From a virus (Duplodnaviria > Heunggongvirae > Uroviricota > Caudoviricetes): a stretch of 64,000 nucleotides of DNA. Both the position numbers and the translations under genes were made by a program. Location: IMG/VR virus record IMGVR_UViG_3300008262_000052. The stretch is one strand, 5' to 3'. Each line of letters opens with the position of its first letter. The stretch's first letter is position 1. Of the stretch, positions 44,845-47,629 are shown piece by piece. The notes under the pieces were generated by a model. It made no database searches. It worked only from the letters and a program-made list of their open reading frames with translations, and was not told the DNA's origin.

Positions 44845-45067
44845 AATGATCAAAGTGGAAATGCGGAACGAGACTGCGAGTAACCACTATAAACAAACTC
44901 AAATGGGCGTGCTTGAGGATGAAACGACTGGTGGTAACGGCGGAGTAAAAATCTAGCGTAGCAAATTCTATTTTCACATGCACAAGCAGAATTGGTGTAA
45001 ATCCGGCTCGGATCTCACTTACGTGGTGGGTCTCCTAACTTGGGGTTGTGGAGTTGAAAATAGAATT

Positions 45068-45151
45068 GGTCGGTGGCCCGGATGGTAAGGGGATGGACTG
45101 CAACTCCATAGCACTGCAAAGTAATGTGTTCGATTCACATACCGACCTCCA
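45068..45151 (+). tRNA. tRNA-Cys(GCA)-like, atypical
   Basis: Acceptor GGTCGGT/ACCGACC. Anticodon arm ATGGA-CTGCAAC-TCCAT. T-arm ATGTG-TTCGATT-CACAT. Encoded CCA. The 14-nt variable region is unusual for Cys. Confidence 0.35.
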
Positions 45152-45206
45152 AACAATGATGTGGTAGCACAACGGTATTCGAATCCAGCCTACATCACCA
45201 AACTAT

Positions 45207-45283
45207 GGGACATTGGACTTCTTGGCGAAGGTCGCCGCCCTTTCAAGGCGGAGAAACGGGTTCGAAACCCGTATGTCCTACCA
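45207..45283 (+). tRNA. tRNA-Glu(TTC)
   Basis: Anticodon arm CCGCC-CTTTCAA-GGCGG as in alphaproteobacterial tRNA-Glu. T-arm ACGGG-TTCGAAA-CCCGT. Encoded CCA. Confidence 0.7.
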
Positions 45284-45289
45284 AAATAA

Positions 45290-45374
45290 GGGAGAGACGC
45301 CTCAAGGTGAGGCAGTGGACTGTAACTCCATCGCGGCAACGCACGGACGGGTTCGATTCCCTCCTCTCCCACCA
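45290..45374 (+). tRNA. tRNA-Tyr(GTA)
   Basis: Anticodon loop CTGTAAC. Long variable arm (GCG-GCAA-CGC). Acceptor GGGAGAG/CTCTCCC. T-stem with 2 mismatches. CCA encoded. Confidence 0.65.
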
Positions 45375-45380
45375 AAATAT

Positions 45381-45456
45381 CCCCAGGTAGCTCAGTTGGT
45401 AGAGCAGCGGACTGAAAATCCGCGTGTCGGCGGTTCAATCCCGTCCCTGGGGACCA
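45381..45456 (+). tRNA. tRNA-Phe(GAA)
   Basis: Canonical cloverleaf. D-arm GCTC-AGTTGGTA-GAGC. Anticodon loop CTGAAAA. CCA encoded. Confidence 0.85.
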
Positions 45457-45501
45457 TAATTGTTTTTTTGTTATAAATATTCTAGTATTTAGGAGAACAT
45501 A

Positions 45502-45945
45502 ATGAAAAAAATACTTTTAACTGTAGCACTGATTGTTGCTGCATCCACTGCATTTGCTGAAGTAAAAAAGCCAACTGGTGTAGCACACGACTTAAAAATT
45601 CTACGTGTAGTAGATGGTGATACAGTTGAATTTGAAGCAAAGTTCTTGCTAGATCCACTTCCGAAGAAACTATCACTTCGTGTATGGGGCGTAGATACAC
45701 CTGAAAAAGGTGGCAGAGCAGAATGTAAAAAAGAAGGCGACATGGGTGATGCTGCAAGTAAATTTACAAAAGATTTAGTTGCAAAAGCCAAGACTACTCA
45801 AATTGTATTTTATGAGTGGGACAAGTTCGGCGGCAGAGTGCTAGGTGATGTTCTTATCGACGGTAAGAGCCTAACACAGATGCTTATTGAACAAGGTTAT
45901 GCTAGAGAATACTACGGCGACAAAAAGCAGTCGTGGTGTAACTAA
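45502..45945 (+). CDS. secreted staphylococcal-nuclease (SNase/thermonuclease) homologue
   Basis: Signal peptide. VVDGDTV. RVWGVDTPEKGG matches the SNase catalytic block (RLxGIDAPE). TATAAATA box at 45472 upstream. Confidence 0.75.
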   Translation: MKKILLTVALIVAASTAFAEVKKPTGVAHDLKILRVVDGDTVEFEAKFLLDPLPKKLSLRVWGVDTPEKGGRAECKKEGDMGDAASKFTKDLVAKAKTTQIVFYEWDKFGGRVLGDVLIDGKSLTQMLIEQGYAREYYGDKKQSWCN

Positions 45946-45964
45946 CAAACATACAACTATTAAT

Positions 45965-46042
45965 GCACCGGTAGCTCAGCCAGGTTAGAGCCGCGGACTC
46001 TTAATCCGAAGGTCGTGGGTTCAACTCCCACCCGGTACACCA
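45965..46042 (+). tRNA. tRNA-Lys(CTT)
   Basis: Anticodon loop CTCTTAA. T-arm GTGGG-TTCAACT-CCCAC. One acceptor mismatch and a 27:43 mismatch. CCA encoded. Confidence 0.7.
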
Positions 46043-46101
46043 ATTCAAGGAACAAAAATGAAACGAAAACGTAACAAAGAAGAAAGCGACAAACGAAACG
46101 T

Positions 46102-46177
46102 GGACCGGTAGCTGAGGTGGTTTTAGCACCCGACTTTTAATCGGAGTACGTGGGTTCGAATCCCACCCGGTTCACCA
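46102..46177 (+). tRNA. tRNA-Lys(TTT)
   Basis: Anticodon loop CTTTTAA. T-arm GTGGG-TTCGAAT-CCCAC. 27:43 C:A mismatch. CCA encoded. Confidence 0.75.
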
Positions 46178-46278
46178 TTGGTTTGATGATACACTGAGTG
46201 GCATTTAGGCCGCCACATAAAATAAACCTATCGGACCAGAAATGGTATTGGTCAGTGTATCTTCTAAACAATGAATAT

Positions 46279-46353
46279 TGCCTCTTAGCTCAGTGGTAGA
46301 GCAATCCCCTGATAAGGGATAGGTCACTAGTTCAAATCTAGTAGGGGCAACCA
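46279..46353 (+). tRNA. tRNA-Ile(GAT)
   Basis: Anticodon arm ATCCC-CTGATAA-GGGAT. T-arm ACTAG-TTCAAAT-CTAGT. CCA encoded. Confidence 0.75.
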
Positions 46354-46360
46354 GAATAAT

Positions 46361-46435
46361 GCCGTGCTTGGTGTAAGGGTAGCATACCGCACTGTGACTG
46401 CGTCGGAATAGGTTCAAATCCTATACACGGTACCA
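46361..46435 (+). tRNA. tRNA-His(GTG), irregular acceptor/D region
   Basis: Anticodon loop CTGTGAC. T-arm ATAGG-TTCAAAT-CCTAT. Discriminator A and no G-1, as in many alphaproteobacteria. Confidence 0.55.
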
Positions 46436-46441
46436 AACGAT

Positions 46442-46517
46442 ACTTCCGTAGCTCAACTGGAAGAGCGCCACCCTACGAAGGTGATTGTTGCAGGTTCGAG
46501 TCCTGCCGGGAGTGCCA
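46442..46517 (+). tRNA. tRNA-Arg(ACG)
   Basis: Anticodon arm CCACC-CTACGAA-GGTGA. T-arm GCAGG-TTCGAGT-CCTGC. CCA encoded. Confidence 0.8.
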
Positions 46518-46565
46518 AAGTTAAACTGTACTATTTCTATCTAGACCTATTCTATAAATATTTTT

Positions 46566-47084
46566 ATGATGAGGGCTATGTTACTAACAGTACTGTTACT
46601 ATCAGTATCTGCTTGTGCAAAAATTCAATTGTTTACTACTTCACCGACACCGCCAGAACCATTGGTTGCTGCAACAGAAAAACTAGGGTGGAGTGAAAAG
46701 AGTCATAGAGCAGAAATAAAAGATTTTATCGGTGTTGATCCAGTTGCCACTGAATGGTGTGCTGCATTTGTAAATGCAGTGCTTGCAGAAACTGGATTAC
46801 CTGGGTCTGATGAATATGCAGAACATCCTCTACTGGCAAGAAGTTTTCTTGATTGGGGCGTAGAAGTAGACGAACCAGAATCAGGTGATGTTGTTGTGTT
46901 TAAGCGTGGCAATGCCAATTGGAAAGGTCATGTTGGATTCTTTGTAACTTCAACCTATCACAATGGTCAAGAATACTATTTGGTGCTTGGTGGAAATCAA
47001 GATAACAGTGTTAACTTTAGTGCATATCCTGTTAGAAAATTGCTAGCAGTGAGAAGATACCCATTCGAAGACGAATTAGAATAG
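46566..47084 (+). CDS. lipoprotein CHAP/NlpC-P60-like peptidoglycan hydrolase (TIGR02594-like)
   Basis: Lipobox LSVSAC. Candidate catalytic Cys in EWCAAFVNAVL and His in GHVGFFV. GDVVVFKRG. Confidence 0.55.
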   Translation: MMRAMLLTVLLLSVSACAKIQLFTTSPTPPEPLVAATEKLGWSEKSHRAEIKDFIGVDPVATEWCAAFVNAVLAETGLPGSDEYAEHPLLARSFLDWGVEVDEPESGDVVVFKRGNANWKGHVGFFVTSTYHNGQEYYLVLGGNQDNSVNFSAYPVRKLLAVRRYPFEDELE

Positions 47085-47360
47085 GCTGAGTTCAGTGTTT
47101 CTCGAGATAAACTGTTCCAGCAGATCATCGGCCCGCCCCACCGCGCCGCCTCGGCAAACGTCAACATGCGTGGCAAGAAAACTAAACATATAAGCTGCTG
47201 GTGCTGTATATGCGTTGACATGCGTGAAAAGATCATGTATAGTATACACAAGAAATAAATAAGAGATAAAGAATAGGTGGCGGCAACCACCGTGGCAACT
47301 GACCTTTTGTTGCAGTAACTTCGATGTCGTTGTCGAGATATAGAAAAGTGCTGCAATGAT

Positions 47361-47430
47361 CGTGTGTATCGTCTAGAGGATAGGACGCCGGCGTGGAGTC
47401 GGAGACAAGGGTTCGAGTCCCTTTGCACTT
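47361..47430 (+). pseudogene. degenerate tRNA-like element (tRNA-Glu-type scaffold)
   Basis: ATCGTCTAGAGGATAGGAC...AAGGG-TTCGAGT-CCCTT mirrors the D and T arms of alphaproteobacterial tRNA-Glu. The anticodon and acceptor stems do not pair properly. Confidence 0.3.
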
Positions 47431-47451
47431 TGTCAGTTGTCAGAAATTTAG

Positions 47452-47527
47452 CCTTCGTAGCTCAACTGGAAGAGCAAGGGATTTCTACTCCCTAGGTTGT
47501 GGGTTCGACTCCTGCCGGGGGCACCAA
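47452..47527 (+). tRNA. tRNA-Arg(TCT)
   Basis: Anticodon arm AGGGA-TTTCTAC-TCCCT. D-arm GCTC-AACTGGAA-GAGC. CCA encoded. Confidence 0.8.
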
Positions 47528-47539
47528 ATAAATACTACG

Positions 47540-47615
47540 CTTCCGTAACTCAGCGGTCAGAGTGCCACGCTTCGAACGTGGTGGTCGAGGGTTCGAATCC
47601 TTCCGGGAGCTCCAT
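47540..47615 (+). tRNA. tRNA-Arg(TCG)
   Basis: Anticodon arm CCACG-CTTCGAA-CGTGG. T-arm GAGGG-TTCGAAT-CCTTC. CCA encoded. Confidence 0.75.
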
Positions 47616-47629
47616 ACAAGAGGAAAGAA

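What the first reader, a model, noticed from the sequence alone, without database searches (positions are those of the whole stretch)
44900..47620. Idiosyncratic features of the phage tRNA set
Several recurring oddities are visible by hand-folding:
- A systematic mismatch at the top of the anticodon stem (position 27:43) in many genes (both tRNA-Lys, His, Gly-TCC, Gln).
- tRNA-His with A73 and no G-1.
- A Cys-like tRNA with a 14-nt variable region (45068).
- A tRNA whose 7-nt loop TTAGTAA gives an AGT anticodon (61808), which is not a normal bacterial Thr anticodon.
- Three Arg isoacceptors.
- A Glu-type pseudo-tRNA (47361).
- A T-arm-plus-acceptor minihelix with encoded CCA (45159-45200).

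In total about 26 tRNAs cover 19 amino acids. The CCA end is encoded in essentially all of them.
Basis: seen in the sequence. Interest (0 to 1): 0.6.

Follow-up and report, generated by a model that had tools for sequence, protein, structure and literature searches.

The report
Phage tRNA island with odd members
A large phage of freshwater Rhodobacter-like bacteria carries about 25 working tRNA genes whose 'oddities' mostly have ordinary explanations (a histidine tRNA matched to the host, conserved phage-specific cysteine and threonine tRNAs, decayed gene relics), but one tRNA look-alike turns out to be a domain of a larger structured RNA that matches no described family.

Summary

- **Host:** a host-like gene is 91% identical in DNA to a Paracoccaceae genome.
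- **tRNA-His** (G1·U72, A73, no G-1) follows the published alphaproteobacterial identity rule, already reported in alphaproteobacterial phage tRNA clusters.
- **tRNA-Cys** with a 14-nt variable arm belongs to a covariation-supported family in 42 viral contigs. All have U73 and GCA, and the arm is a short hairpin, GNRA-capped in most variants.
- **tRNA-Thr(AGU):** the same anticodon arm occurs in 45 viral contigs, and ACU is this phage's top Thr codon.
- **27:43 mismatches** are the known "4-bp anticodon stem". The rate is 25% here, 13% in related phage tRNAs and 5.6% in bacteria.
- **The "minihelix"** is a tRNA-Met(CAU) gene with a 32-nt internal deletion.
- **An Ala-like gene** (A3-U70) is decayed.
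- **The "Glu-type pseudo-tRNA"** is not a relic. It is the tRNA-like domain of a conserved ~160-180-nt RNA closed by a long-range helix that covaries across four lineages. Its function is unknown.

A Pnkp/Rnl1 tRNA-repair module, a TilS-like gene, GOLLD RNA and a tmRNA lie nearby. Overall this is a new variant of a known kind, of moderate interest.

The parts
45068..45151 (+). tRNA-Cys(GCA) with U73, a 7/5 cloverleaf, and a 14-nt variable arm (3-bp stem plus GCAA tetraloop)
   Evidence: ARAGORN structure. Rfam 45.4 bits. Family alignment A2: 98.9% of cells paired, 11 pairs with changes on both sides. The conserved core is in 42 viral contigs.
45158..45200 (+). Remnant of a tRNA-Met(CAU) gene after a 32-nt internal deletion. 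The acceptor stem, T-loop and ACCA remain; the D-stem 3' strand, anticodon arm, variable loop and T-stem 5' strand are gone.
   Evidence: It occupies the slot of a full tRNA-Met between Cys and Glu in L101/L093 (A1). The full-length ortholog at L293 1985-2059 matches 37 of 43 end positions. No Rfam hit. Fold z=-0.6. No copy in IMG/VR.
45207..45283 (+). tRNA-Glu(UUC)
   Evidence: It is 100% identical to L101/L093.
45290..45374 (+). tRNA-Tyr(GUA), class II, with a weak T stem (3 G-C pairs plus 2 mismatches). ARAGORN misses it in default mode.
   Evidence: ARAGORN -ps95. Rfam 33.8 bits. It is 98% identical to L101 and 86% to the L096 group.
45381..45456 (+). tRNA-Phe(GAA)
45502..45945 (+). ORF inside the tRNA island: staphylococcal-nuclease-like protein with an apparent N-terminal signal sequence (my reading; not tested)
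   Evidence: Pfam SNase, 2.3e-11. PHROG endonuclease.
45965..46042 (+). tRNA-Lys(CUU), with G27.A43 and C2.A71 mismatches
46102..46177 (+). tRNA-Lys(UUU), with a C27.A43 mismatch that is kept in orthologs while inner stem pairs covary
46178..46278 (+). Spacer between the Lys and Ile tRNAs: a conserved ~19-bp inverted-repeat stem around an interior that is unrelated between lineages. Unexplained.
   Evidence: RNAalifold on the window, L204, L101 and L093.
46279..46353 (+). tRNA-Ile(GAU)
46361..46435 (+). tRNA-His(GUG) of the alphaproteobacterial type that lacks G-1: G1.U72, C3-G70, A73, T at -1; also C7.A66 and C27.U43
   Evidence: Literature.
46442..46517 (+). tRNA-Arg(ACG), with a C27.A43 mismatch
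46566..47084 (+). ORF inside the tRNA island: CHAP-domain peptidoglycan hydrolase. It has 280 relatives in viral contigs; several of the loci examined also carry tRNA arrays.
47215..47243 (+). Sigma-70-like promoter, TTGACA-17-TATAGT (11 of 12 matches), just upstream of the structured RNA
47271..47448 (+). Conserved structured RNA. It consists of a P1 hairpin (47276-47291), a P2 closing helix (47293-47303 paired with 47432-47442), a variable P3 hairpin, and a tRNA-Glu-derived cloverleaf (47362-47431).
   Evidence: RNAalifold. Fold z=-2.68. MAFFT alignment A7: 5 of 11 P2 pairs changed on both sides. Model R1 found L288 and L303/L308. Alignment A8: 7 of 11 P2 pairs changed on both sides, 94% of cells paired.
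47362..47431 (+). tRNA-like domain of that RNA. It has a Glu-type D arm (U13.G22), an intact T arm, G33, no CCA, and a 'loop' CGUGGAG that differs in every lineage.
   Evidence: Rfam tRNA 37.5 bits.
47451..47526 (+). tRNA-Arg(UCU)
47539..47614 (+). tRNA-Arg(UCG)
59680..61011 (+). Second tRNA island, first part: Asn, Ala-like pseudogene (59775-59851), Val, Trp, Ser, Asp, Gly(UCC), Thr(UGU), Leu(UAG), Gln, Pro
   Evidence: The Ala-like gene has A3-U70 and 2 acceptor mismatches, whereas 26 of 26 relatives have G3.U70.
61808..61883 (+). tRNA-Thr(AGU) with a U28.U42 mismatch
   Evidence: The same anticodon arm occurs in 45 viral contigs with varied acceptor stems. L065 carries the same anticodon stem with a UGU anticodon, 88% identical overall.
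61931..63710 (+). Second tRNA island, second part: Gly(GCC), GOLLD RNA (62665-63126) with an embedded tRNA-like element (62728-62801), a CAU tRNA (63326-63401), and Leu(CAA)

Best explanation
The interval is the first of two tRNA islands of a large, uncultivated, AT-rich phage (about 40% GC). Its host is most likely a GC-rich freshwater member of the Paracoccaceae (Rhodobacterales, Alphaproteobacteria). About 25 tRNAs for 19 amino acids supply the phage's own translation.

Shown:
- tRNA-His carries the identity set of the alphaproteobacterial HisRS that does not use G-1.
- The long-arm tRNA-Cys and tRNA-Thr(AGU) are conserved tRNA families of related phages, not mutations of this genome.
- 27:43 mismatches are the known 4-bp anticodon-stem variant, and in Lys-UUU the mismatch is conserved.
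- The 'minihelix' and the Ala-like gene are decayed genes.
- The Glu-like element is a structurally conserved domain of a larger RNA.

Inferred:
- The set compensates for the phage's A/U-ending codons.
- tRNA-Cys is charged by CysRS through U73 and GCA.
- tRNA-Thr(AGU) reads ACU.
- The structured RNA is released from the head of the Arg-tRNA transcript and acts through its tRNA-shaped elbow rather than by decoding.
For: Host:
- The formate-dehydrogenase-like gene at 9414-12422 has 57% GC against a 40% background.
- It is 97% identical in protein and 91% in DNA to Paracoccaceae bacterium RE-M30, and 95% in protein to Tabrizicola.
- An alphaproteobacterial-type two-piece tmRNA is present.

tRNA-His:
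- It has G1.U72, C3-G70, A73 and no G-1.
- This matches the conserved features and identity elements measured for Caulobacter HisRS (PMC3064791) and the Rhodobacteraceae/Rhizobiales/Caulobacterales/Hyphomonadaceae (RRCH) clade trait (PMC3937112).
- 18 of 22 distinct tRNA-His genes examined (the window's included) have A73.
- The same type was reported in alphaproteobacterial phage tRNA clusters (PMC5389517).

tRNA-Cys:
- The conserved core is in 42 viral contigs, with variable arms of 12, 14 and 17 nt; close relatives have only 6 nt.
- The 12- and 14-nt arms end in GAAA, GCAA or GTAA loops, and all variants carry U73 and GCA.
- 11 pairs changed on both sides and 98.9% of cells are paired.
- U73 and GCA are the major Cys determinants (PMC9976931).

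tRNA-Thr(AGU):
- 45 of 51 exact matches to the anticodon arm lie in tRNAs with varied acceptor stems.
- ACU makes up 39% and ACA 38% of phage Thr codons. The host-like gene uses ACC for about 60%.

Codon match: in 4- and 6-fold codon families, the codons cognate to the phage tRNAs are enriched in the phage relative to the host-like gene (mean log2 ratio 1.34 against -0.24; Mann-Whitney P=0.0075).

27:43 mismatch.

Decayed genes.

Structured RNA.
Against: - No expression, processing or charging data exist for any of these tRNAs.
- Host assignment rests on one recently acquired gene plus tRNA and tmRNA type.
- The codon-compensation test over all codon families is not significant (P=0.12). It also uses a single host-like gene as the proxy for host codon usage.
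- Codon compensation does not explain why the Cys tRNA needs a variable arm, or why Thr uses A34 when G34 would also read ACU.
- The Pnkp/Rnl1 repair module between the islands points to a second selective pressure, host tRNA nucleases, that this explanation treats as secondary.
- tRNA-Tyr has a weak T stem and the CAU tRNA has an irregular acceptor/T junction, so the count of functional genes is uncertain.
Confidence: 0.7

Rival explanations
1. Counter-defence reading. The island exists mainly to survive host tRNA-cleaving immunity. On this view the deviant anticodon stems (27:43 mismatches in both Lys tRNAs, Gln and Arg), the variable arm on Cys and the A34 on Thr are escape variants that host nucleases no longer recognise. 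The tRNA-like RNA is a decoy or sensor. Pnkp and Rnl1 repair whatever is still cut. This is compatible with the codon-compensation reading and could be the dominant pressure.
For: - A T4-type repair set sits between the two islands: PNKP phosphatase domain (3e-31), P-loop kinase, Rnl1-like RNA ligase (91.6 bits in Pfam; 152.7 bits against the T4 RnlA family model, below that model's 242.25 cutoff), and a cyclic-phosphate-processing receiver domain.
- Phage tRNAs are known to escape anticodon nucleases through anticodon-loop or stem changes (PMC10264068, PMC11555353).
- AriB cuts inside the anticodon stem of Lys(UUU), Thr(UGU) and Asn(GUU), and T5's stem variants resist it (PMC12409363).
- C27.A43 is conserved in Lys-UUU orthologs.
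- The tRNA-like RNA keeps a tRNA shape but has no conserved anticodon.
Against: - No nuclease of the presumed host is known, and none was examined here.
- 27:43 mismatches are also common in cellular tRNAs (5.6%), so they need no defence explanation.
- The known escape mutations lie at positions 39-41 or in the loop, not at 27:43.
- Nothing links tRNA-Cys to any known nuclease.
Confidence: 0.3
2. Decay reading. The oddities are signs of a degenerating tRNA set, in which many of the unusual members are pseudogenes carried passively.
For: - Two clear relics exist: the deletion remnant at 45158 and the Ala-like gene with A3-U70.
- tRNA-Tyr has a 3-bp T stem.
- His, Cys and the element at 47362 score low in Rfam, at 37-45 bits.
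Against: - The unusual Cys, Thr(AGU) and His types recur in many contigs with varied stems that remain paired, with compensatory changes counted for Cys.
- The element at 47362 covaries across four lineages.
- CCA is intact in 26 of 28.
Confidence: 0.1
3. Recoding or mistranslation reading. The long-arm tRNA with anticodon GCA is a class II tRNA (Tyr-, Ser- or Leu-derived) that inserts another amino acid at Cys codons. Thr(AGU) would similarly alter decoding.
For: - The anticodon arm of the Cys tRNA (ATGGA-CTGCAAC-TCCAT) is nearly identical to that of the neighbouring tRNA-Tyr (GTGGA-CTGTAAC-TCCAT), with the same T loop and a GCAA variable loop.
- Bacterial tRNA families that mistranslate are known (PMC10404621).
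Against: - U73 and GCA are the Cys determinants, and A73 is needed by TyrRS and LeuRS (established identity rules).
- Overall identity to Tyr (0.69-0.73) is no higher than to Ser or Trp.
- Relatives L029 and L035 share the acceptor and T arms but have a 6-nt variable loop. This points to arm growth within a Cys lineage.
- Thr(AGU) has G1-C72, C2-G71, G35 and U36, as Thr tRNAs do.
Confidence: 0.05

Closest known systems
tRNA gene clusters of alphaproteobacterial phages described by Mukai et al. 2017 (PMC5389517)
   Same: These are phage tRNA clusters in which tRNA-His lacks G-1 and has A73. Relatives of this window (L076, L203) carry the 8/4 tRNA-His form described there.
   Different: The window's own tRNA-His fits the 7/5 form better (6+5 pairs against 6+4). 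The main text of that paper mentions no 7/5 long-arm tRNA-Cys in these phage clusters, and its supplements could not be read.
Alphaproteobacterial tRNA-His that lacks G-1 (Wang et al. 2007; Yuan et al. 2011, PMC3064791)
   Same: No G-1, A73, G1.U72, C3-G70 and a GUG anticodon.
   Different: This copy is phage-encoded. It has extra C7.A66 and C27.U43 mismatches, and the register of its D arm is ambiguous.
selC* tRNA-Cys (Mukai et al. 2017; reviewed in PMC7609411)
   Same: A tRNA-Cys with U73, a GCA anticodon and a long variable arm.
   Different: [quoted passage not shown] The phage tRNA is a plain 7/5 cloverleaf with a short variable-arm hairpin (2-4 bp), GNRA-capped in most variants.
tRNAs with 4-bp anticodon stems (Fakih et al. 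2026, PMC13092985)
   Same: The terminal base pair of the anticodon stem is unpaired (here always the top, 27:43). That paper reports the variant as widespread and non-random across isoacceptors.
   Different: The rate here is 25% against 5.6% in bacteria. The Trp(CCA) tRNA of this phage has a normal 5-bp stem, so the UGA-readthrough case does not apply.
T4 and T5 phage tRNA clusters with the T4 Pnk/Rnl1 tRNA repair system
   Same: A tRNA island interspersed with small ORFs, and a polynucleotide kinase-phosphatase plus an Rnl1-type ligase in the same genome region.
   Different: The kinase and phosphatase are separate ORFs. The host is an alphaproteobacterium. The set is almost complete (19 amino acids). 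GOLLD, tmRNA and TilS-like genes are also present.
YrlA / bacterial Y RNAs with a tRNA-like domain (Chen et al. 2014, PMC4201824)
   Same: A non-decoding RNA that contains a tRNA-shaped module and a long stem formed by distant segments. YrlA RNAs are also found in phages.
   Different: The Rfam YrlA model gives no match here. No Ro60/TROVE hit was found among the ~40 larger ORFs scanned against Pfam. Here the closing helix flanks the acceptor side and a full anticodon stem is kept, and the GNCGAA motif was not seen.

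Membership tests
tRNA (Rfam RF00005) | Covariance-model score at or above the gathering score of 29 bits | tested here: met
   28 matches at 33.8-71.6 bits, including Cys (45.4), His (41.3), the 47362 element (37.5), Tyr (33.8) and a partial match to the Ala-like gene (35.7). The 45158-45200 remnant gives no match even at E<=1.
Alphaproteobacterial tRNA-His lacking G-1 | No templated G at -1, A73, G1:U72, C3:G70 and a GUG anticodon | tested here: met
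   T at 46360, G1.T72, C3-G70, A73 and GTG, compared with the features listed in PMC3064791.
Alphaproteobacterial tRNA-His lacking G-1 | Nine-nucleotide D loop with an extra U20a | tested here: inconclusive
   A 9-nt loop (TAAGGGTAG) is obtained only in the register shared with L076. That register leaves a G10.A25 mismatch and no nucleotide 26. ARAGORN's register gives a 7-nt loop.
Alphaproteobacterial tRNA-His lacking G-1 | Charged by the divergent HisRS of the host clade | not testable with these tools
   This needs an aminoacylation assay.
(8/4) tRNA-His of alphaproteobacterial phages (Mukai 2017) | 8-bp acceptor stem with a 4-bp T stem | tested here: not met
   The window gives 6+4 pairs as 8/4 against 6+5 as 7/5. 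L076 and L203 give 8+4 against 7+4.
tRNA-Cys | U73 discriminator and GCA anticodon | tested here: met
   Both are present in the window and in all family members recovered. The determinants are as given in PMC9976931.
Class II (long variable arm) tRNA | Variable region longer than 10 nt that forms a stem-loop | tested here: met
   14 nt with a 3-bp stem and a GCAA loop. Relatives have 12 nt (2 bp) and 17 nt (4 bp). The stem sequence never varies, so it gives no covariation evidence.
selC* tRNA-Cys | 8/4 structure with an A51a bulge and lengthened anticodon and acceptor stems | tested here: not met
   A 7-bp acceptor, 5-bp T stem and 5-bp anticodon stem all covary as a 7/5 cloverleaf.
tRNA-Tyr derivative by anticodon shift | Closer in sequence to tRNA-Tyr than to any other isoacceptor | tested here: not met
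   Best identity to Tyr is 0.69-0.73, the same as to Ser (0.70-0.72) and Trp (0.67-0.72).
4-bp anticodon-stem tRNAs | Non-standard pair at the top (27:43) of the anticodon stem | tested here: met
   Six tRNAs plus the tRNA-like element.
tRNA-Ala | G3:U70 wobble pair | tested here: not met
   The gene at 59775-59851 has A3-U70 and two acceptor mismatches. 26 of 26 tRNA-Ala genes in related loci have G3.U70.
Acceptor/T-arm minihelix | Coaxial helix of 12 bp (7-bp acceptor plus 5-bp T stem) closed by a T loop | tested here: not met
   Only the 7-bp acceptor stem forms, and the interior has 2 pairs.
YrlA / Y RNA-like (RF02553) | Covariance-model match, a neighbouring Ro60 (TROVE) gene, and a Ro-binding stem | tested here: not met
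   No YrlA match over 47271-47448. No TROVE hit in any scanned ORF.
GOLLD RNA (RF02032) | Covariance-model score at or above 150 bits, location near phage tRNAs | tested here: met
   191.7 bits at 62665-63126, with an embedded tRNA-like element. The association with tRNA islands is described in PMC12286853.

The most novel reading that the evidence does not exclude
The 'Glu-type pseudo-tRNA' marks a new class of phage non-coding RNA. In it, a tRNA-shaped module whose acceptor ends are locked by a covarying long-range helix is transcribed at the head of tRNA operons in alphaproteobacterial phages. It would act as a tRNA mimic, for example as a decoy or sensor for host tRNA-targeting immunity or as a partner of the neighbouring RNA-repair enzymes. 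The long-arm tRNA-Cys and tRNA-Thr(AGU) would belong to the same counter-defence toolkit.
Probability: 0.2. Interest if true: 0.7.

Novelty: new variant of a known kind. Interest (0 to 1): 0.45.

Why it matters
- **Host prediction.** Phage tRNAs track host-lineage aminoacylation rules closely. A73 with G1·U72 in tRNA-His could therefore serve as a host-prediction marker for uncultivated phages.
- **tRNA-Cys.** The family adds a 7/5 tRNA-Cys with a short variable-arm hairpin, GNRA-capped in most variants, for which I found no description. This bears on how much variable arm CysRS, EF-Tu and the ribosome tolerate, and on the design of orthogonal tRNAs.
- **A34 tRNA.** A non-Arg tRNA with A34 is widespread in one group of phages, which raises the question of whether it is deaminated.
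- **Structured RNA.** The analysis turns a supposed pseudogene into a testable candidate RNA family. It sits next to tRNA-repair genes, in a field where tRNA-targeting immunity and phage countermeasures are being actively worked out.

Tried and rejected
- **Cys derived from the neighbouring Tyr by an anticodon shift.** The near-identical anticodon arms suggested this. Whole-molecule identity is no higher to Tyr than to Ser or Trp, and relatives with a 6-nt variable loop share the Cys acceptor and T arms.
- **tRNA-His as an 8/4 tRNA.** This holds for relatives but not for the window.
- **The minihelix as a functional element.** It has no T stem, no stability beyond shuffled sequences, no Rfam hit and no second copy anywhere. 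Its full-length ortholog was found.
- **The structured RNA as YrlA.** No model match and no Ro60 gene.
- **Close relatives among cultured phages or plasmids.** Megablast of the region found only short tRNA matches. The Cys and His tRNAs and the tmRNA gave no match.
- **Codon compensation over all codon families.** Not significant (P=0.12). It is significant only in 4- and 6-fold families.
- **Single-sequence fold z-scores.** These were uninformative for true tRNAs (Cys z=-0.5), so I did not use them as evidence against function.
- **Host tRNAs for direct comparison.** They could not be obtained.

Full report
**1. What is there**

ARAGORN in default mode finds 26 tRNA genes, all on the + strand. 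Eleven lie in 45068-47614 and fifteen in 59680-63710.

Rfam confirms these and adds two weaker tRNA matches, at 45290-45371 and 59784-59840. It also finds a GOLLD RNA at 62665-63126 and an alphaproteobacterial-type two-piece tmRNA at 12444-12891. Relaxed ARAGORN resolves the two weak matches as tRNA-Tyr(GUA) at 45290-45374 and an Ala-like gene at 59775-59851.

**2. Source and host**

The window is 41.9% GC and has no close relative among cultured phages. It carries phage-type genes: ribonucleotide reductase, a tail-fibre-like protein and a CHAP hydrolase with 280 relatives in viral contigs.

One gene, a formate-dehydrogenase-like ORF at 9414-12422, stands out at 57% GC. It is 97% identical in protein and 91% in DNA to Paracoccaceae bacterium RE-M30, and 95% in protein to a Tabrizicola genome. 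The DNA similarity stops at the gene's ends.

I take this as a recent acquisition from the host lineage. The likely host is therefore a freshwater member of the Rhodobacterales.

**3. tRNA-His**

The gene has T at -1, G1·U72, C3-G70, A73 and CCA. Yuan et al. list exactly these features (no G-1, A73, G1-U72, a conserved C3 pair) for the alphaproteobacterial group. They show that Caulobacter HisRS uses the anticodon, U72 and A73 (PMC3064791). Amrine et al. place the trait in the Rhodobacteraceae-Rhizobiales-Caulobacterales-Hyphomonadaceae clade (PMC3937112).

Of 22 distinct CCA-ending tRNA-His genes examined (21 from the fetched viral loci plus the window's own), 18 have A73 and 14 of those have G1·U72.

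Mukai et al. had already noted tRNA-His without G-1 and with A73, including 8/4 forms, in tRNA clusters of alphaproteobacterial phages (PMC5389517). Relatives L076 and L203 are clear 8/4 molecules. The window's copy aligns to them without gaps but pairs better as 7/5.

This item is already known biology and agrees with the host assignment.

**4. tRNA-Cys with a variable arm**

The 84-nt gene has a 7-bp acceptor stem, a 3-bp D stem, a 5-bp anticodon stem and a 5-bp T stem. It also has U73 and GCA, and its 14-nt variable region folds into ACT/AGT around a GCAA loop.

An exact search with its anticodon arm found the same long form in seven viral contigs. A degenerate search with the conserved core found 42 contigs.

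The variants have variable regions of 12, 14 or 17 nt, with stems of 2, 3 or 4 bp. The 12- and 14-nt arms are capped by GAAA, GCAA or GTAA, which are all GNRA loops; the 17-nt arm has a 5-nt CACGA loop. Two close relatives with the same acceptor and T arms have only a 6-nt loop.

On an eight-sequence alignment, 98.9% of cells pair and 11 of 23 pairs change on both sides. Shifted-register controls fall to 25-49% paired.

U73 and GCA are the major Cys determinants (PMC9976931). The known long-arm Cys tRNAs, selC*, differ in having an 8/4 structure with a bulge (PMC7609411).

I first suspected an anticodon shift from the neighbouring tRNA-Tyr, because the anticodon arms differ at two positions only. 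However, whole-molecule identity to Tyr (0.69-0.73) equals that to Ser and Trp. The length series instead points to arm growth inside a Cys lineage.

There is no match in cultured phages or plasmids, and I found no description in the searchable literature.

Charging by CysRS is inferred, not shown. As established background, most class I synthetases leave the variable region facing solvent, which makes an added arm plausible to tolerate.

**5. tRNA-Thr(AGU)**

The anticodon is confirmed. The exact 17-nt arm GTTGA-TTAGTAA-TCATC, including its U28·U42 mismatch, occurs in 51 viral contigs. In 45 of them it lies in a tRNA-Thr(AGU), and these genes have many different acceptor stems and two D-arm types. 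One relative, L065, carries the same stem with UGU.

In bacteria, all tRNAs with A at position 34 together make up about 2.9% of tRNA genes (PMC13092985).

The phage's Thr codons are 39% ACU and 38% ACA, which match its two Thr tRNAs. The host-like gene uses ACC for about 60%.

Whether A34 is deaminated is unknown.

**6. The 27:43 mismatch**

Seven of 28 genes have a non-standard 27:43 pair. In 661 distinct tRNAs from the fetched phage loci:
- Position 27:43 is by far the most often mismatched site in the stem (88 cases, against 29, 2, 2 and 9 at the other four pairs).
- The mismatch concentrates in Lys-UUU (50%), Gly-UCC (36%), Met-CAU (30%) and Gln-UUG (28%).

Fakih et al. report 4-bp anticodon stems, unpaired at either the top or the bottom of the stem, in 5.6% of 1.7 million bacterial tRNAs, with at least one in 85.6% of genomes. 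They also show that unpairing the top pair can widen decoding (PMC13092985).

The window's rate exceeds the bacterial mean (P=7e-4) but not the phage background (P=0.07).

In Lys-UUU orthologs, C27·A43 is kept while the inner pairs covary (CCCGA/TCGGA against CGCGA/TCGCA). This suggests the mismatch is tolerated or selected there.

**7. The decayed genes**

In L101 and L093 the gene order is Cys - Met(CAU) - Glu - Tyr - Phe. The window has the 43-nt element in the Met slot, while the flanking Cys and Glu genes are 94-100% identical.

A full-length ortholog in L293 reads GATGCGGTAGCACAACGGTA[GTGC...GCTGG]TTCGAATCCAGCCTGCATCACCA. The window lacks the bracketed 32 nt and has one compensated acceptor pair.

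What remains cannot form a T stem. It folds no better than shuffled sequences, is invisible to Rfam's tRNA model, and has no exact copy in IMG/VR.

The Ala-like gene has A3-U70 and two acceptor mismatches, whereas 26 of 26 related tRNA-Ala genes have G3·U70. Ala is therefore the one amino acid not covered.

**8. The 'Glu-type pseudo-tRNA'**

The element at 47362-47431 has the D arm of true tRNA-Glu genes, including U13·G22. The same 23-nt pattern occurs in ordinary tRNA-Glu(UUC) genes in metagenomes. However, it has G33, no CCA, and a loop (CGUGGAG) that ARAGORN misreads as Pro.

Orthologs have different loops, CGUGCAG, UGGAGAU and CGGAGG, and ARAGORN calls them Ala, Leu or undetermined. The acceptor and T stems nevertheless covary.

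Aligning the flanks showed about 90 conserved nucleotides upstream and about 17 downstream. RNAalifold then pairs 47293-47303 with 47432-47442, enclosing a hairpin and the cloverleaf. The single-sequence fold has z=-2.68.

A metagenome scan added L324 and L334. On a MAFFT alignment of six sequences, the closing helix has 5 of 11 pairs changed on both sides.

A covariance model built from that alignment found three more full-length members in two further lineages: L288, and L303/L308.

The closing helix reads:
- TGGCAACTGAC/GTCAGTTGTCA
- TGGCTAGGAG/CTCCTAGCCA
- TGACCGAGAG/CTCTCGGTC
- TGACAACAAGT/ACTTGTTGTCA

On the eight-sequence alignment, 94% of cells pair and 16 of 34 pairs change on both sides, including 7 of 11 in the closing helix. 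The caveat is that this alignment is fitted to the model.

In the window the unit lies 28 nt downstream of a near-consensus promoter. In the five contigs checked (window, L101, L203, L204, L334) a tRNA gene follows it directly.

It matches no Rfam family. It is not YrlA: there is no model match, no Ro60 gene was found, and the topology differs.

Its function is unknown. The shape argues for action through the tRNA elbow rather than through decoding.

**9. Context that bears on mechanism**

Between the two islands lie:
- a PNKP-type phosphatase (49465-49926);
- a P-loop polynucleotide-kinase-like ORF (50422-50940);
- a T4 Rnl1-like RNA ligase (50976-52130);
- a cyclic-phosphate-processing receiver domain (52069-52491);
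- a weak PTH2-like ORF.

This is the T4-type tool set for repairing tRNAs cut by anticodon nucleases. It suggests that host attack on tRNA is a real pressure on this phage.

A TilS N-terminal domain at 37644-38279 scores above NCBI's cutoff. Together with 20% AUA among phage Ile codons, this suggests that the CAU tRNA at 63326 may be an Ile2-type tRNA.

In 4- and 6-fold codon families, the codons cognate to the phage tRNAs are those enriched in the phage relative to the host-like gene (P=0.0075). Over all families the test is not significant (P=0.12).

**10. Verdict**

The interpretation, 'idiosyncratic', is only partly right.

The thing itself is a known kind, a phage tRNA island. It has a host-matched tRNA-His (known), two conserved unusual tRNA families (I found no description of either), a known stem variant at raised frequency, and two dead genes. 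It also has one element whose real nature, a domain of an undescribed structured RNA family, is the most interesting result.

None of the functional steps (processing, charging, decoding, or the role of the RNA) could be tested here.

Noticed in passing
window 62665-63126 (embedded tRNA-like element at 62728-62801): GOLLD RNA (191.7 bits) inside the second tRNA island. A tRNA-like element with anticodon TGA and no CCA lies in its 5' part. ARAGORN counts this element as one of its 26 tRNAs. GOLLD RNAs next to phage tRNA islands, sometimes with tRNAs in the linker, are described in PMC12286853.
   Followed up: partly
window 12444-12891: Two-piece (permuted) alphaproteobacterial-type tmRNA gene (95.6 bits) in a phage genome. 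ARAGORN did not report it. It has no match in cultured phages and is not adjacent to the formate-dehydrogenase homolog in host genomes.
   Followed up: partly
window 9414-12422: A 1002-aa formate-dehydrogenase-like (molybdopterin/NADH-G type) ORF at 57% GC in a 40% GC genome. It is 91% identical in DNA to a Paracoccaceae genome, which suggests a recently acquired host gene.
   Followed up: yes
window 48569-52491: RNA-repair module between the two tRNA islands: a PTH2-like ORF, a PNKP phosphatase domain, a P-loop kinase, a T4 Rnl1-like ligase and a cREC_REC domain. Metallophosphoesterases flank it at 47859-48509 and 54829-55377.
   Followed up: partly
window 37644-38279 and 63326-63401: The ORF has a TilS (lysidine synthetase) N-terminal domain scoring above the curated cutoff. 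The only intact CAU tRNA has an irregular acceptor/T junction (one extra nucleotide and a G6.A67 mismatch). It may be an Ile2-type tRNA rather than Met.
   Followed up: partly
window 46178-46278: The spacer between tRNA-Lys(UUU) and tRNA-Ile has a ~19-bp inverted-repeat stem that is conserved in the window, L204 and L101/L093. The 55-75 nt inside the stem are unrelated between lineages. It could be a processing stem or a small insertion cassette.
   Followed up: partly
window 59775-59851: Decayed tRNA-Ala(UGC) gene with A3-U70 instead of G3.U70, two acceptor mismatches and one D-stem mismatch. L188, which shares three identical tRNAs with the window's second island, has an intact copy.
   Followed up: yes
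window 23942-31289 and 43221-44348: Other unexpected cargo genes: a CsgG-like protein, a FecR-domain protein, a CHASE2-adenylate/guanylate cyclase (680 aa) and an ornithine/DAP-type decarboxylase. A GMP-reductase/IMPDH-like gene lies at 17412-18536.
   Followed up: no
L293 990-1064 and other related loci: tRNAs with anticodon CTA (amber-suppressor type; ARAGORN labels them 'Pyl') occur in several related viral contigs, with four distinct sequences. The window has none.
   Followed up: no
window tRNAs compared with L101, L102, L029, L076 and L188: Individual tRNAs of the window are 100% identical to tRNAs in different contigs: Glu and Arg-UCU in L101, Cys and Gly-GCC in L102, Val in L029, Asp in L076, and Gly-UCC, Gln and Thr-AGU in L188. 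Their neighbours are only 75-90% identical. The islands therefore look mosaic, as if tRNA genes are exchanged singly.
   Followed up: partly
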